This document shows positions 7,869-52,730 of a stretch of 64,000 nt of DNA, one piece after another. Position 1 is the stretch's first letter; the number at the start of each line of letters is the position of its first letter. The stretch is from positions 1,881-65,880 of the forward strand of contig JAGVJQ010000091.1 in NCBI GenBank assembly GCA_020051015.1, given 5' to 3'. The DNA is from Gammaproteobacteria bacterium (GTDB taxonomy: Bacteria; Pseudomonadota; Gammaproteobacteria; UBA1113). A program made the position numbers and the translations under genes. The notes below the pieces were generated by a model, which was not told the origin of the DNA, searched no databases, and was given only the letters and a program-made list of their open reading frames with translations.

Positions 7869-7959
7869 GGAGAGATGGCCGAGCGGCTGAAGGCGCACGC
7901 CTGGAAAGTGTGTATACGGCAAAACCGTATCGAGGGTTCGAATCCCTCTCTCTCCGCCA
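7869..7959 (+). tRNA. tRNA-Ser (anticodon GGA)
   Basis: Acceptor GGAGAGA/TCTCTCC, discriminator G and encoded CCA. Anticodon loop CTGGAAA, long variable arm (TATACGGCAAAACCGTAT), T-loop GGTTCGAATCC. Confidence 0.9.
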
Positions 7960-8003
7960 AATTTTGAAAAGATAGAATTCGTCGATTCATTTATAATTTT
8001 CCC

Positions 8004-8110
8004 GTTCGACAAATCGGCAGGAAGCCGATTTGCACGGGCGAAGCCCGCCCGAAGGGCGAAGGCCAGGGATGGCCTGAGTGAATCCCTCTCTCTCCGCCAA
8101 TTTTCAAAAA
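8004..8110 (+). repeat. second partial copy of the tRNA-Ser 3' end (att-like direct repeat), interrupted by a hairpin element
   Basis: GTTCGA (8004-8009) plus ATCCCTCTCTCTCCGCCAATTTTCAAAAA (8082-8110) repeats tRNA/flank 7936-7970 with 1 indel and 1 mismatch. Confidence 0.8.
8010..8081. mobile_element. four-hairpin GC-rich miniature element, copy A
   Basis: Four consecutive stems: AAATCGGC/GCCGATTT, GGGC/GCCC, GCCC/GGGC, AGGCCA/TGGCCT. Homologous to 52650-52719. Deleting it restores GTTCGA^ATCCC of the tRNA T-arm. Confidence 0.65.
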
Positions 8111-8961
8111 AACTCCGCCAATCCTAACCAATCATCTGGATCCATATTATCCTCAACCGCCCAGCAAGCAGCCAAAATACATTGTACATAACTCCAATCT
8201 CGAATTCGTTGTGCATCAATACTTAAATTATCAGCAAATAATTTAATTCGGGTTTTAATTAAATCCGGATGAGTCTGTATTTCAGGGATAGGATTACGAA
8301 TAAATGCTCCTACTTCATAGGCAGGCTCACCAATAACACCTTTCGGATCAATAGCGATCCATTTATTTATACCATTCGATAAAATATTGTCATGATGTAA
8401 ATCGCCATGCAACAAAACAAGCTCGGTAGACGTTGCCAATAATTGTGTACGTAAATTTCTTGCTTGTTGCAAATGATATAATGGTAAGGGATGATCTTTA
8501 TCAAGGGTTTTTAACCACTCTGCAATTGTAGGAAAGTTAAGATTGTCTTTAATGGGCGCGGAGTGCAATTCATGCATAATGGTGCAAGTAATCTCAACGG
8601 CTTCCTTATCTTGCTGTGGGAATAATTGCTTCAGTGATTGTCCAGGGATTGCTAACTCAAGCAATAATGCATTTTGTGCAGGAAGATATTCAAACAATTT
8701 AACGCAGCCATGACCATCAAAAGCACGCAATGCTTTTATTTCTCGTTGCATACCCATGACATCAAGACCCAATTTCAGAACGATAGCTTTGCCGTACTGA
8801 GCTCCAGCGAGCAGATAATGATAAGAATGTTCGCCTAAAGGTTGTAAATCTTGCAAATGTAATTGTTGTGCAAGTTGTTGGATCAAAGATGGCAACTGGA
8901 TAAGCCACGTTTTGCCTTGTTGCCCCCAGATATTGATAATGTTATTTTCAAATGTGTCCAT
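8104..8961 (-). CDS. aminoglycoside phosphotransferase, APH(6)/StrB-like
   Basis: Catalytic loop LLHGDLHHDNIL, IDPKGVIGEPAYE, and a C-terminal CILAACWAVED resembling StrB. I prefer the ATG at 8961 (MDTFENN...). The longer track ORF would overlap the divergent gene. Confidence 0.75.
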   Translation of the reverse strand: MDTFENNIINIWGQQGKTWLIQLPSLIQQLAQQLHLQDLQPLGEHSYHYLLAGAQYGKAIVLKLGLDVMGMQREIKALRAFDGHGCVKLFEYLPAQNALLLELAIPGQSLKQLFPQQDKEAVEITCTIMHELHSAPIKDNLNFPTIAEWLKTLDKDHPLPLYHLQQARNLRTQLLATSTELVLLHGDLHHDNILSNGINKWIAIDPKGVIGEPAYEVGAFIRNPIPEIQTHPDLIKTRIKLFADNLSIDAQRIRDWSYVQCILAACWAVEDNMDPDDWLGLAEFF

Positions 8962-9003
8962 AAGAGGTATTATGCCAATAAAATCACTAAATGCACATTG
9001 CTT

Positions 9004-10053
9004 ATGAGTAAAGTAAATCCAGAATCTATTATTATCGAACCTTATGATCCGACGTGGCCACAACAAGCTGAGCAAGAAATTGCTATGTTGAAAGATTGTT
9101 GCGCATTTCCATGGGTGATGGACATCCAACATGTTGGTAGTACAGCGGTGCCTGAATTAAATGCCAAACCGATTATTGATATTATGATAGGCGTGAAAAA
9201 TATTAATGAAGCACGAGCATTAATTCCACTATTGGAAACCATGGGTTACATTTTTTGGGATAAAAATCCTAAACCAAATCACTTGGTTTTTATTAAAGGT
9301 ATGCCTCCTTATGGCAAAAAGCGCACGCATCATGTACATGTATTTAAAATGGATTCATACGAGTGGTTAATTCACCACGTTTTTCGTGATTATTTACGTA
9401 TGCATCAAAATACAAAAGTTGCCTATCAACAATTAAAAGAAGAATTGGCTGAAAAGTTTAAAGACGACCGTGAGGCATATACTGCAGCAAAAGCTGAATT
9501 TATAAAAAGTATTCTGCAATCGGCTGCAAAAAAATTAATTACATTTACATCTTTATCCAAAGTTGATTTTCCACTAGTTTATAATTGGTTTAATGAACCG
9601 CACGTACAAGAGTTTTACTCCTTGCGGTCCTGGACGTTAGATGAAGTCACTAAAAAACTGGCTCCGTATATCGACGGTAGTAAAAAAGTAAATGGTTTTA
9701 TTTGTCATATTGATAAAAAGGCGATTGGCTATATTCAATATTACAATCTAGCGGATTATCCAATACCCGATCAAGATATTGCACAAGATGTCGTTATTAA
9801 GGCAGCTGGCATAGATTTTTTTATCGGTGATAAAGGTTTTCTGAAGAAAGGATTGGCTGGGATTATTTTAGAAGAATTTTTGCATCAGCAAATTTGGCCT
9901 CATTATCAATATTGCATTGTTGATCCTGATATACGCAACCAGCGATCGATTGATTTTTTTGCGAAACATGGTTTTAAGAAGCATAAAATAATTGTCACAA
10001 AAGATGTACTGCAAAGAGAGGTTAAGTTGCAGTTGATGATTAGAAAGAATTAG
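9004..10053 (+). CDS. fusion protein: GrpB nucleotidyltransferase-fold domain + AAC(6')-Ib-type GNAT acetyltransferase
   Basis: The N-terminal half has DIQHVGSTAVPELNAKPIIDIMIGV (GrpB/UPF0157). The C-terminal half has NEPHVQEFY, IGYIQYY, GIDFFIG, KGLAG and VDPDIRNQRSIDFFAKHGF, collinear with AAC(6')-Ib / Acetyltransf_8. Start moved to the ATG at 9004. Confidence 0.65.
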   Translation: MSKVNPESIIIEPYDPTWPQQAEQEIAMLKDCCAFPWVMDIQHVGSTAVPELNAKPIIDIMIGVKNINEARALIPLLETMGYIFWDKNPKPNHLVFIKGMPPYGKKRTHHVHVFKMDSYEWLIHHVFRDYLRMHQNTKVAYQQLKEELAEKFKDDREAYTAAKAEFIKSILQSAAKKLITFTSLSKVDFPLVYNWFNEPHVQEFYSLRSWTLDEVTKKLAPYIDGSKKVNGFICHIDKKAIGYIQYYNLADYPIPDQDIAQDVVIKAAGIDFFIGDKGFLKKGLAGIILEEFLHQQIWPHYQYCIVDPDIRNQRSIDFFAKHGFKKHKIIVTKDVLQREVKLQLMIRKN

Positions 10054-10071
10054 GTTGATTAGGAAATTAAT

Positions 10072-10482
10072 ATGATAACAGGCATGAATCACATTACGCT
10101 TGCGGTAAAAGACATTAAAAAGTCTTTTGAATTTTATCATCAAGTATTGGGTTTAAAACCACTTTGTTGCTGGGACAAAGGCGCTTATTTTTTAGTGGGT
10201 GATTTTTGGTTTTGCTTAAACGTAGATGATAAGCGTGAAGTTAACTCATGTTATACACATTATGCTTTTAGCGTTTCAGCCAGTGATTTTCAAACAATGA
10301 GTGAGAAAATAATAACATCAGGAGCAATCGTTTTTAAAGAAAATACGTCACCCGGTGAATCATTATATTTCCTAGATCCTGACGGACACAAACTGGAAAT
10401 TCATGCTAGTGATTGGCAAACGAGAATTTTAACTAAAAAAGCAGAGCCTGGGCATTGGACAGGAATAGAATGGTTTGTATAA
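10072..10482 (+). CDS. fosA: FosA-like fosfomycin-resistance glutathione transferase (VOC superfamily)
   Basis: 136 aa. MNHITLAV (His7), YTHYAFSV (His), YFLDPDGHKLEIH (Glu) align with the FosA metal ligands and length. Confidence 0.75.
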   Translation: MITGMNHITLAVKDIKKSFEFYHQVLGLKPLCCWDKGAYFLVGDFWFCLNVDDKREVNSCYTHYAFSVSASDFQTMSEKIITSGAIVFKENTSPGESLYFLDPDGHKLEIHASDWQTRILTKKAEPGHWTGIEWFV

Positions 10483-31694: not shown

Positions 31695-31700
31695 GGATTA

Positions 31701-31748
31701 TTTACAATTTTACTCTGCTGGGCACAAAGCCTAGCGAATTGTAAACAG
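31701..31748. repeat. short hairpin repeat (TTTACAATT...AATTGTAAA), uninterrupted copy
   Basis: 9-bp stem with loop TTACTCTGCTGGGCACAAAGCCTAGCG. The same element, carrying two nested inserts, occurs at 52529-52730. Confidence 0.75.
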
Positions 31749-52374: not shown

Positions 52375-52528
52375 ATTAACTTCTCCTTAGGGACACACTT
52401 TAGTTATAGCGCTATTTTACGTCACTTGCAATTTTGTCTCATATAACTCAATGAGTTATCGCTATGTAACGTGTTTTGTTAATGGGCATTTTATAGGCAA
52501 AACCTTAATGAAATCTGAACTAGGGTTT

Positions 52529-52730
52529 ATTTACAATTCTACTATGCTGGGCATTAAGCCTCGATTTTCGGCGCTCCGCTGCTCACAGACGGCCAAGTAT
52601 GCTCCGCTGCGGTGCTCGAAAATCAAGTCTTTCTGCCACAGCCTAGCGACAAATTGGCGCCAGCCAATTTGGACGGCTAAAAGCCGCCCCGCAGGGGTGA
52701 GGGCCGAAGGCCCGAATCAATTGTAAACAG
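52529..52730. repeat. composite repeat: TTTACAATT hairpin element carrying two nested miniature inserts
   Basis: The outer sequence matches 31701-31748. An 83-nt insert (52562-52644) has IR CGATTTTCGG/TCGAAAATCA. The 70-nt four-hairpin insert lies at 52650-52719. Confidence 0.75.
52650..52719. mobile_element. four-hairpin GC-rich miniature element, copy B
   Basis: Stems AAATTGGC/GCCAATTT, CGGC/GCCG, CCCC/GGGG, GGGCC/GGCCC. Collinear with 8010-8081, with compensatory stem changes. Confidence 0.65.

What the first reader, a model, noticed from the sequence alone, without database searches (positions are those of the whole stretch)
8010..8081. About 70-nt four-hairpin GC-rich element with compensatory stem changes and a shared CGA^AT insertion site
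Copy A (8010-8081) and copy B (52650-52719) are collinear strings of four short GC-rich hairpins in an otherwise AT-rich genome.

The stems differ by paired changes:
- AAATCGGC/GCCGATTT versus AAATTGGC/GCCAATTT
- GCCC/GGGC versus CCCC/GGGG
- AGGCCA/TGGCCT versus GGGCC/GGCCC

So structure, not sequence, is conserved.

Removing copy A restores GTTCGA^ATCCCTCTCTCTCCGCCA, the tRNA-Ser 3' segment. Removing copy B restores the uninterrupted hairpin repeat seen at 31701-31748 (AGCGA^ATTGTAAACAG). Both copies are therefore inserted immediately 3' of CGA and 5' of AT. They have no terminal inverted repeats and no clear target duplication.

Subterminal hairpins plus insertion 3' of a short specific sequence is the behaviour of IS200/IS605-type (HUH, single-strand) transposition and its non-autonomous derivatives. 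No such transposase is in this window.
Basis: seen in the sequence. Interest (0 to 1): 0.6.

Follow-up and report, generated by a model that had tools for sequence, protein, structure and literature searches.

The report
RtT-type four-hairpin mini insertion element
The two GC-rich 70-base hairpin strings are copies of a small gene-less insertion element, a distant relative of the core of the long-known but unexplained E. coli RtT repeats. It lands just after a TCGA-like step in hairpin loops (mostly tRNA T-loops), has recently spread in this genome, and is moved by an enzyme that is still unidentified.

Summary
Copies A (8010-8081) and B (52650-52719) belong to a family of 24 copies in this 2.5-Mb, 37.7% GC genome. 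All four hairpins are held by compensatory changes: 24 of 24 pairs, 98% paired, 0 of 500 shuffles as good.

Copy B is one of 12 near-identical inserts (95% alike). They sit at exactly TAG(C/T)GA^ATTGT in a palindromic host repeat that also has about 44 empty copies. The closest relative of each occupied site is an empty one, so the 70-nt unit inserts on its own, with no terminal inverted repeats and no target duplication.

Copy A lies in the T-loop (GTTCGA^AT) of a partial second tRNA-Ser 3' end. This is the layout of the E. coli tyrT/rttR 178-bp "RtT" repeats.

The element occurs in 27 of 61 genomes sampled from the class and 40 of 121 from the phylum. It usually lies next to an intact tRNA, and 91% of insertions follow an A (TCGA in 52%).

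The IS200/IS605 (HUH) mechanism is not supported. The only Y1 gene is a RAYT with different flanking repeats. Orientation shows no replication-strand bias (34:39), and co-occurrence with Y1 genes is weak.

This scan has found RtT-like elements before on other DNA.

The parts
7869..7959 (+). Intact tRNA-Ser(GGA). Its T-loop TTCGA|AT is at 7937-7943 and its 3' segment ATCCCTCTCTCTCCGCCA at 7942-7959 (direct repeat 1).
   Evidence: ARAGORN; Rfam tRNA 56.2 bits; sequence.
7960..8003 (+). AT-rich spacer of the RtT-like unit. AGATAGAATTCGTCGA (7970-7985) weakly resembles the GGATGAGAAGCTTCGA motif (an inverted T-arm copy) of E. coli RtT and of relatives.
   Evidence: Sequence compared with the E. 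coli tyrT repeats and the upstream motifs of relatives. The resemblance is an inference.
8004..8009 (+). GTTCGA: the 5' half of a second, partial T-loop. This is the left target flank of copy A.
   Evidence: Sequence. TCGA is the left flank in 45 of 86 non-redundant contexts.
8010..8081 (+). Element copy A, tRNA-linked type. Hairpin 1: 8010-8018/8024-8032. Hairpin 2: 8035-8039/8043-8047. Hairpin 3: 8047-8050/8054-8057. Hairpin 4: 8060-8065/8070-8075. Tail GAGTGA: 8076-8081.
   Evidence: Model R1 83.9 bits; DNA fold -24.4 kcal/mol, z -6.0; covariation.
8082..8109 (+). Direct repeat 2. ATCCCTCTCTCTCCGCCA is identical to 7942-7959, followed by ATTTTCAAAA, which resembles the tRNA trailer AATTTTGAAAA.
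   Evidence: Sequence; BLAST of tRNA tails.
52525..52649 (+). Left part of the palindromic host repeat 'R1' (5' arm TTTACAAT at 52531-52538). It carries another nested small repeat (about 52551-52626) and ends in CCTAGCGA, the left target flank of copy B.
   Evidence: Sequence. This flank is 93% identical to an empty R1 copy on contig C46.
52650..52719 (+). Element copy B, one of the young dispersed type: 12 inserts about 95% identical to one another.
   Evidence: Model R1 89.1 bits; the DNA fold is exactly the four hairpins, z -4.2.
52720..52730 (+). ATTGTAAACAG: the 3' arm of host repeat R1 and the right target flank of copy B.
31699..31748 (+). Empty copy of host repeat R1. The insertion point is between 31737 (A of TAGCGA) and 31738 (A of ATTGT).

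Best explanation
The element is a gene-less, 70-75-nt insertion element defined by structure. It is a diverged relative of the four-hairpin core of RtT-type tRNA-linked repeats (E. coli tyrT/rttR).

It is joined as a discrete unit, in a fixed orientation relative to the target motif, immediately 3' of the A of a (T)CGA-like step. That step usually lies in the loop of a DNA hairpin: most often the T-loop of a spare tRNA gene copy, and in this genome also the loops of other palindromic repeats.

- Copy A is an older tRNA-Ser-linked insertion (an RtT-like unit).
- Copy B belongs to a recent burst into one palindromic repeat family.

Shown:
- It is a discrete unit with an exact junction and has inserted independently many times.
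- The target motif is defined.
- The stems are kept strictly Watson-Crick with no excess of wobble pairs.
- Either DNA strand of the T-arm can be used.

Inferred:
- The hairpins are recognised as folded DNA by a trans-acting nuclease or recombinase encoded elsewhere. That enzyme is not identified.
- The flanking partial tRNA copies survive because an intact tRNA copy lies beside them.
For: Family and structure:
- 24 copies in the genome.
- All four helices covary: 24 of 24 pairs, 97.8% paired, 0 of 500 shuffles as high; slid controls are far lower.

Independent insertion:
- 12 occupied against 44 empty R1 sites.
- Inserts are 95% identical, while 82 nt of their flanks average 46% identity.
- For 8 of the 10 occupied sites with enough flank, the nearest neighbour is an empty site (for example copy B is 93% identical to an empty copy on C46).
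- The same insert subtype occurs on both arms of R1.

Target motif, from 86 non-redundant contexts in about 30 genomes:
- Position -1 is A in 91% and position -2 is G in 80%.
- TCGA is the left flank in 52%.
- The right flank is less constrained (AT in about 58%).

tRNA linkage:
- Three tRNA-linked copies (Ser, Arg, Glu) lie 35-75 nt after intact tRNAs, between (G)GTTCGA and a repeated tRNA 3' end.
- Of 34 loci scanned (5 of them from this genome's non-tRNA contexts), 20 carry an intact tRNA close to the element.

RtT kinship:
- The E. coli tyrT repeats have the same order: GGATGAGAA...GGTTCGA + 4 GC hairpins + GAGTA + ATCCTTCCCCCACCACCA.
- The broad model R2 hits all four tyrT-region units and nothing else (18-21 bits, E 3e-5 to 2e-4).
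- The five best matches of Rfam RtT in this genome all fall on element copies.

DNA level rather than RNA level:
- G.T cells number 23 against 21 A.C cells among 2055.
- Insertions antisense to the tRNA occur (L049, probably L041), and one lies in an anticodon loop (L037).

Breadth: 27 of 61 genomes in the class sample and 40 of 121 in the phylum sample carry it.
Against: - No mobilising enzyme was found.
- No orthologous empty site could be obtained. The only same-genus genome is about 76% identical and not syntenic at either locus.
- Spread among R1 copies by gene conversion is not formally excluded.
- Kinship with RtT rests on shared architecture and sub-threshold scores: at most 17.3 bits against a 45-bit cut-off, and no locus of relatives reaches the Rfam cut-off.
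- The origin of the duplicated tRNA 3' ends and of the inverted T-arm motif upstream of many units is unexplained.
- The pairing counts on A4 come from an alignment fitted to the model, although the MAFFT alignment A2 gives the same picture.
Confidence: 0.75

Rival explanations
1. It is a non-autonomous derivative of an IS200/IS605-type element, or a REP mobilised by a RAYT. On this view a Y1 HUH transposase cuts single-stranded DNA 3' of the target tetranucleotide and at the element's 3' end, using the hairpins as recognition sites.
For: - There are no inverted ends and no duplication.
- Insertion is 3' of a TCGA-like tetranucleotide, and the element's own 3' end (ATCA/GTCA) is of a similar type.
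- Immediate head-to-tail tandems occur after ...GTCA (L071).
- One intact RAYT is present in the genome.
- Co-occurrence with Y1 genes is mildly positive: 17 of 26 against 14 of 34 genomes, and 27 of 39 against 35 of 81.
Against: - The RAYT is flanked by a different REP, and none of the Y1 genes in the relatives compared by coordinates lies next to an element copy.
- A 99%-complete genome with 28 copies has no Y1 match.
- There is no orientation bias against local GC skew: 10:11 and 24:28.
- Hairpin 1 starts at the very first base, so there is no room for the spacer and guide layout of IS608-type left ends (established knowledge).
Confidence: 0.15
2. It is not mobile. On this view it is a functional structured RNA domain (an RtT-like small RNA released from tRNA transcripts) that multiplies only by local duplication, and the dispersed copies ride passively on the amplification of their host repeats.
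For: - Structure is strongly conserved over a whole phylum, with conserved loop and junction bases.
- The element is linked to tRNA operons.
- E. coli RtT is reported as a stable processed RNA (Bosl and Kersten 1991, as cited in PMC4986893 and PMC7542023).
Against: - Inserts are 95% alike inside flanks that are 46% alike, and nearest neighbours are empty sites.
- Copies sit in several unrelated repeat families and on both arms of R1.
- Some copies are antisense to the tRNA.
- G.U pairs are no more frequent than A.C mismatches.
- No terminator or promoter signal lies beside copy A.
Confidence: 0.07
3. The repeated tRNA-Ser 3' end beside copy A is a scar (attL/attR) of integrase-mediated integration of the downstream gene islet. 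On this view the element merely landed later in that spare T-loop.
For:
- This genome has true scars of that type elsewhere. For example, a 45-nt tRNA-Thr 3' copy lies 4.6 kb from the gene.
Against: - Only 44 nt plus the element separate the two repeats, and the islet lies outside them. No third copy and no integrase were found.
- The same close-range layout recurs at tRNA-Arg and tRNA-Glu here, at many tRNAs in other genomes and in E. coli tyrT.
- The classic scars in this genome carry no element, even where an intact TTCGA is present.
Confidence: 0.08
4. It is a mini-element moved in trans by an IS110/IS1111-family recombinase guided by a bridge RNA. These elements also lack inverted ends and duplications and target palindromic repeats.
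For: - The insertion behaviour is similar.
- In genome G073 an IS110-family IS (28 copies) repeatedly sits between two inverted element copies in the same host repeat.
Against: - No IS110-family gene was found in this genome, which is 88.7% complete.
- There is no association across genomes: 12 of 39 genomes with the element against 32 of 81 without.
- In G073 the IS occupies its own site about 10 nt from the element, and that site is also found empty.
Confidence: 0.03

Closest known systems
RtT RNA / rttR: the 178-bp repeats after tyrT-tyrV in E. coli K-12 (Rfam RF00391)
   Same: - The order of parts is the same: tRNA 3' end, spacer with a GGATGAGAA-type motif, (G)GTTCGA, four short GC-rich hairpins including CCCGAAGGG, a GAGTA/GAGTGA tail, then the tRNA 3' segment from the T-loop to CCA.
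- The models recognise each other weakly but specifically.
- Both form tandem arrays beside tRNAs.
   Different: - Scores are far below the Rfam cut-off: at most 17.3 against 45 bits.
- The core here also occurs alone, away from tRNAs, as recent insertions in other repeats.
- In the literature I could search, RtT is treated as a small RNA of unknown function, not as an insertion element (PMC4986893, PMC7542023, 10.1101/2024.07.17.603846).
IS200/IS605 family and its palindrome-associated non-autonomous derivatives
   Same: - No inverted ends and no target duplication.
- Hairpins near both ends.
- Insertion 3' of a short specific sequence.
   Different: - There is no cognate TnpA and no copy carrying a gene.
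- There is no replication-strand orientation bias.
- It has four hairpins rather than one per end, and the first hairpin starts at base 1.
REP/BIME or REPIN elements with their RAYT transposase
   Same: - Short, GC-rich, hairpin-forming and intergenic.
- Nested and mosaic with other repeats.
- A RAYT is present in this genome.
   Different: - The RAYT's flanking REP is a different sequence.
- There is no GTAG-plus-single-palindrome layout and no inverted doublets.
- Its T-loop targeting is not a described REP property (from my own knowledge).
Rickettsia palindromic elements (RPE) and MITEs such as Correia or ERIC elements (comparison from my own knowledge)
   Same: - Small, gene-less, structured repeats that spread within a genome.
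- One copy here (C47:17140-17208, 69 nt) is in frame in the leader of a pilin-like open reading frame, as RPEs can be.
   Different: - Unlike MITEs, it has no terminal inverted repeats and no TA or other duplication.
- Its distribution is phylum-wide and tRNA-linked, unlike RPEs.

Membership tests
RtT (Rfam RF00391) | Reaches the family's gathering score (45 bits). | tested here: not met
   The best match in this genome is 17.3 bits at C123:1636-1766. No match at or above the cut-off in the window or in 34 loci.
RtT (Rfam RF00391) | Lies in a tRNA operon next to an intact tRNA and ends in a copy of that tRNA's 3' segment. | tested here: met
   Copy A, C47:35108 and C123:1655 meet this. Copy B and the 20 other copies do not.
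RtT (Rfam RF00391) | Same internal architecture as the E. coli units: half T-loop, multi-hairpin GC core, other half of the T-loop. | tested here: met
   Side-by-side sequences. Model R2 hits only the four tyrT-region units in a 2.5-kb E. coli stretch, at 18-21.2 bits.
RtT (Rfam RF00391) | Released as a stable RNA from the tRNA transcript. | not testable with these tools
IS200/IS605-type non-autonomous element | Insertion 3' of a specific tetra- or pentanucleotide, with no inverted ends and no duplication. | tested here: met
   TCGA in 45 of 86 contexts and position -1 = A in 78 of 86. Exact junctions against empty sites.
IS200/IS605-type non-autonomous element | A cognate Y1 (HUH) transposase whose own element carries the same ends. 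| tested here: not met
   There is one Y1 gene, a RAYT, flanked by unrelated repeats. None of the Y1 genes in the relatives compared by coordinates is adjacent to an element copy.
IS200/IS605-type non-autonomous element | Orientation bias with replication (top strand on the lagging-strand template). | tested here: not met
   Measured against local GC skew: 10:11 in G000 and 24:28 in G073. The proxy is noisy in draft genomes.
IS200/IS605-type non-autonomous element | Co-occurrence of element and Y1 gene across genomes. | tested here: inconclusive
   17 of 26 against 14 of 34 genomes and 27 of 39 against 35 of 81. G147 has 28 copies and no Y1 match. Related genomes are not independent.
REP/REPIN with RAYT | The repeat flanks the RAYT gene and carries the conserved GTAG plus a single palindrome. 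| tested here: not met
   The RAYT flanks are GTAGCCCTCCATTAAGC...GCTTAATGAGGGATC, and the element has no GTAG.
Integrase att scar at a tRNA gene | Direct repeats of the tRNA 3' end bracket an island that carries or once carried an integrase. | tested here: not met
   The repeats are 44 nt plus the element apart. The gene islet lies outside them and there is no third copy.
MITE | Terminal inverted repeats and a target site duplication. | tested here: not met
   The ends are CAAAT... and ...GAATCA. The junction is ambiguous by 1 nt only.
IS110/IS1111-mobilised element | A DEDD transposase is present where the element is active. | tested here: not met
   None found in G000. 12 of 39 genomes with the element against 32 of 81 without.

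The most novel reading that the evidence does not exclude
The four-hairpin RtT core is a phylum-wide (possibly wider), gene-less mobile DNA that needs no element-encoded enzyme. A conserved host or still-unknown nuclease/recombinase recognises the folded element and joins it 3' of TCGA in extruded hairpin loops. tRNA T-loops are its natural home. The 45-year-old puzzle of tRNA-linked repeats such as the tyrT 178-bp units would then be the by-product of these insertions and of their repair by duplication.
Probability: 0.4. Interest if true: 0.8.

Novelty: new variant of a known kind. Interest (0 to 1): 0.6.

Why it matters
RtT repeats have been known since the first tRNA gene sequences, but they have neither a function nor an origin.

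This genome gives unusually clean evidence that their core is an insertion element in its own right. A dozen near-identical 70-nt inserts sit at one exact position in a repeat family that also has about 44 empty copies. Older copies lie in tRNA T-loops.

That turns a descriptive puzzle into a testable one:
- the target is defined (3' of TCGA in a hairpin loop);
- the substrate is 70 nt;
- there is a clear question, namely which enzyme moves it.

If the enzyme is a host protein or a new recombinase acting on folded DNA, it would be a new transposition route. It would also explain why spare tRNA fragments accumulate next to tRNA genes. For annotation, the element accounts for many 'att-like' tRNA 3' repeats that are not integration scars.

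Tried and rejected
- **Rfam:** gathering and E-value scans gave no family for the element.
- **Orthologous empty sites:** the same-genus genome G001 is too diverged (76%) and not syntenic; its tRNA-Ser(GGA) simply lacks the unit.
- **Organism name:** a cysteine-synthase search in genome contigs returned only 63-69% relatives from many groups, so it was uninformative. The look-up of encoding contigs found nothing.
- **Plasmids:** no match to the copy A unit.
- **IS110-family mobiliser:** rejected.
- **RAYT as mobiliser:** not supported.
- **Terminator role for copy A:** no terminator-like site.
- **Coding role:** only two copies lie in long open frames. One is an N-terminal extension artefact between divergent genes; the other is listed under noticed in passing.
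- **'Anti-3'-end' pairing segment upstream of tRNA-linked copies:** present in only about 10 of 46 contexts (exact match of 7 nt or more), so it is not a general rule.
- **Literature:** Bosl and Kersten 1991 (PMC329039) is not held. The current version of the CoCoNuT preprint no longer mentions RtT.

Full report
**Observation**

The window holds two collinear GC-rich strings, copy A at 8010-8081 and copy B at 52650-52719. The genome is 2.52 Mb, in 150 contigs, with 37.7% GC.

- Copy B folds into exactly four hairpins, as DNA or as RNA. Copy A folds into three in the minimum-energy structure because hairpins 2 and 3 share one G.
- DNA z-scores are -6.0 and -4.2, and none of 200 shuffles folds as well.

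**Family in this genome**

nhmmer, and then a covariance model built from 13 copies, find 24 solid copies (35.8-95.2 bits), plus one truncated copy and one marginal hit. They fall into these groups:

- Twelve full copies and one truncated copy of the copy B type, inside a palindromic repeat I call R1.
- Five inside a larger palindromic repeat, R2.
- Four single copies in the centres of other palindromes.
- Three downstream of intact tRNAs: copy A after tRNA-Ser(GGA), one after tRNA-Arg(TCG) and one after tRNA-Glu(TTC).

**Structure is what is conserved**

- On the MAFFT alignment of own-genome copies, 98.7% of cells pair and 10 pairs change on both sides; no shuffle of 500 does as well.
- On 97 copies from about 30 genomes, all 24 pairs show double changes and 97.8% of cells pair. 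The covariation score is 0.566, against 0.135 for shuffles and at most 0.083 when partners are slid. That alignment is fitted to the model, but the MAFFT result agrees.
- Among 2055 cells there are 23 G.T and 21 A.C. Wobble pairs are therefore no commoner than the mismatch that would be a wobble on the other strand. This is what a DNA-level structure predicts and is unusual for a functional RNA.
- Several unpaired bases are also conserved: GGA in loop 4, GA after hairpins 1 and 3, and the tail GARTCA.

**It inserts as a discrete unit**

The R1 repeat has about 44 copies with the uninterrupted sequence TAG(C/T)(G/A)A|ATTG, one of them in the window at 31732-31748. Twelve copies carry the 69-70-nt insert at exactly that point.

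- The inserts are 95% identical to one another, whereas 82 nt of their flanks average 46% identity.
- For 8 of the 10 occupied sites with enough flank, the nearest neighbour is an empty site. Copy B's flank is 93% identical to an empty copy on contig C46.
- The same insert subtype is found on both arms of the palindrome.
- These are therefore separate insertions into different R1 copies, not amplification of one R1-plus-insert block.
- The junction can slide by one A only. There are no inverted ends and no duplication.

**Target**

In 86 non-redundant contexts from this genome and about 30 others, the base before the element is A in 91% and the one before that is G in 80%. The tetranucleotide is TCGA in 52%. 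The right flank begins with AT in about 58%. In nearly all cases the site lies in or at the edge of a hairpin loop: tRNA T-loops, the R1 and R2 palindromes, and others.

**The tRNA-linked copies are RtT-type units**

- Copy A lies between GTTCGA (8004-8009) and ATCCCTCTCTCTCCGCCA (8082-8099). The latter repeats the last 18 nt of tRNA-Ser (7942-7959), which lies only 44 nt upstream of the half T-loop.
- The Arg and Glu copies have the same layout, with the tRNA 3' end plus 38-55 nt of trailer repeated.
- Across relatives the element is typically flanked by ...GGTTCGA and ATCC...CCA. It often forms arrays with periods of 170-240 nt and is often preceded by a GG(G)ATGAGAACCC-type motif, which is an inverted copy of the local T-arm.
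- The E. coli K-12 tyrT-tyrV trailer, the classic 178-bp repeats that encode rttR/RtT RNA, reads GGGGAAGGATGAGAAGCTTCGACCAAGGTTCGA + four GC hairpins + GAGTA + ATCCTTCCCCCACCACCA.
- My broad model hits all four units there and nothing else (18-21 bits).
- The five best matches of Rfam's RtT model in this genome all lie on element copies, though at 17.3 bits or less against a 45-bit cut-off.
- I therefore read the element as a diverged relative of the RtT core. This is kinship by architecture and weak reciprocal scores, not formal Rfam membership.
- The searchable literature treats RtT as a tRNA-operon small RNA of unknown function (PMC4986893, PMC7542023, 10.1101/2024.07.17.603846).

**Breadth**

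The element is found in 27 of 61 genomes sampled from the window's class (many families) and in 40 of 121 sampled from the phylum. Some genomes carry 20 to more than 50 dispersed copies. Of 34 loci scanned (5 from this genome's non-tRNA contexts), 20 hold an intact tRNA close to the element. Particular cases:

- In one relative, three full-length tRNA-Ser copies, each interrupted in the T-loop, precede the intact gene.
- In another, a spare tRNA-Ser copy carries one insert in the anticodon loop (after GA) and one in the T-loop.
- In at least one locus the element is antisense to the tRNA, inserted after TCGA on the other strand of the palindromic TTCGAA.
- I saw no case where the only copy of a tRNA was interrupted.

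**Mechanism**

The behaviour fits: a target 3' of a tetranucleotide, no inverted ends, no duplication, and immediate head-to-tail tandems after ...GTCA. The specific tests do not fit:

- The genome has one Y1 gene, a RAYT (176 bits to NF047646), bracketed by a different REP.
- None of the Y1 genes in the relatives I compared by coordinates lies next to the element.
- Co-occurrence is only mildly positive: 17 of 26 against 14 of 34 genomes, and 27 of 39 against 35 of 81. One near-complete genome has 28 copies and no Y1 match.
- Orientation relative to local GC skew is 10:11 here and 24:28 in a genome with over 50 copies. IS200/IS605 elements are strongly biased.
- An IS110-family recombinase was a second candidate, because in G073 such an IS repeatedly sits between two inverted copies. 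It uses its own site about 10 nt away, it is not found in this genome, and it shows no association across genomes.

My best reading is DNA-level, site- and orientation-specific joining of the folded element by a trans-acting enzyme that remains unidentified.

**What stays unexplained**

- Why each tRNA-linked unit carries a repeat of the tRNA 3' end.
- Why many units also carry an inverted copy of the T-arm matched to the local tRNA.

Classic integrase scars exist in this genome, for example a 45-nt tRNA-Thr copy 4.6 kb from its gene. They look different and carry no element. So the short-range repeats seem tied to the element, perhaps through duplication-based rescue of the hit tRNA. That is inference only.

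**Relation to earlier notes of this scan**

After I had reached the RtT comparison, the scan's index showed that other windows had led to the same family. Those notes include 'RtT-type mini-element inserted in tRNA loops' at GA^A steps, with an unknown mobilising enzyme. My results agree. They add the occupied-versus-empty site analysis, the wobble symmetry, the orientation test, and the Y1 and IS110 cross-tabulations.

**Verdict**

This is a new variant of a known kind: the RtT core behaving as a free-standing insertion element.

Noticed in passing
G000 contig C47:17140-17208 (locus L021:1482-2111): This copy is 69 nt, not 70. It lies in frame inside the leader of a type IV pilin-like open reading frame (MQQHLA[23 aa]NCKQSRWRQSG|FGLLEILLAIAV...). 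Removing it leaves an 18-residue leader in the same frame, so the 1-nt shorter length may have been selected.
   Followed up: partly
G000 contig C60:36213-36647 (locus L001): A single intact REP-associated tyrosine transposase (RAYT) gene. It is bracketed by its own repeat family (GTAGCCCTCCATTAAGC...GCTTAATGAGGGATCG), which differs from the four-hairpin element.
   Followed up: partly
window 52525-52730 and 31699-31748; many contigs of G000: The genome is dense in nested small palindromic repeats. R1 (about 55 copies) often contains a second inserted repeat (...CTCGATTTTCGGCGCTCCGCTGCTCACAGACGGCC...GGTGCTCGAAAATCAAG). R2 and other palindromes carry the element at their centre. Many contigs end in these repeats.
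   Followed up: partly
window 8104-10482: Directly beyond the second tRNA-Ser 3' copy lie an aminoglycoside-kinase-like open reading frame (8104-9132, minus strand), a GrpB-plus-acetyltransferase-like open reading frame (8863-10053) and a glyoxalase/fosfomycin-resistance-like open reading frame (10072-10482). No integrase and no third tRNA 3' copy were seen.
   Followed up: no
G073 (another class of the phylum), e.g. L110:657-2134: An IS110-family insertion sequence (347-aa DEDD transposase, 28 copies) repeatedly occupies one fixed site in a mosaic repeat, between two inverted copies of the four-hairpin element. The same mosaic repeat is also found with each of the three sites empty.
   Followed up: partly
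L037 (G013), L029 (G010), L049 (G035): Spare tRNA-Ser copies beside the intact gene take three forms. One carries inserts in both the anticodon loop and the T-loop. One locus has three tandem full-length copies, each interrupted in the T-loop. One partial copy has the element antisense to the tRNA.
   Followed up: partly
G000 contig C61:35076-35120 against tRNA-Thr at C61:39656-39731: A 45-nt exact copy of the tRNA-Thr 3' half lies 4.6 kb from the gene. This is a classic integration scar bounding a small island, and it carries no four-hairpin element although its T-loop TTCGA is intact.
   Followed up: no
E. coli K-12 NC_000913 1286700-1287240 (L056): The annotated 'protamine-like protein' gene tpr (b1229) lies wholly inside the GC-rich hairpin core of the first RtT unit. 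Its arginine-rich reading frame may simply reflect the hairpin sequence.
   Followed up: no
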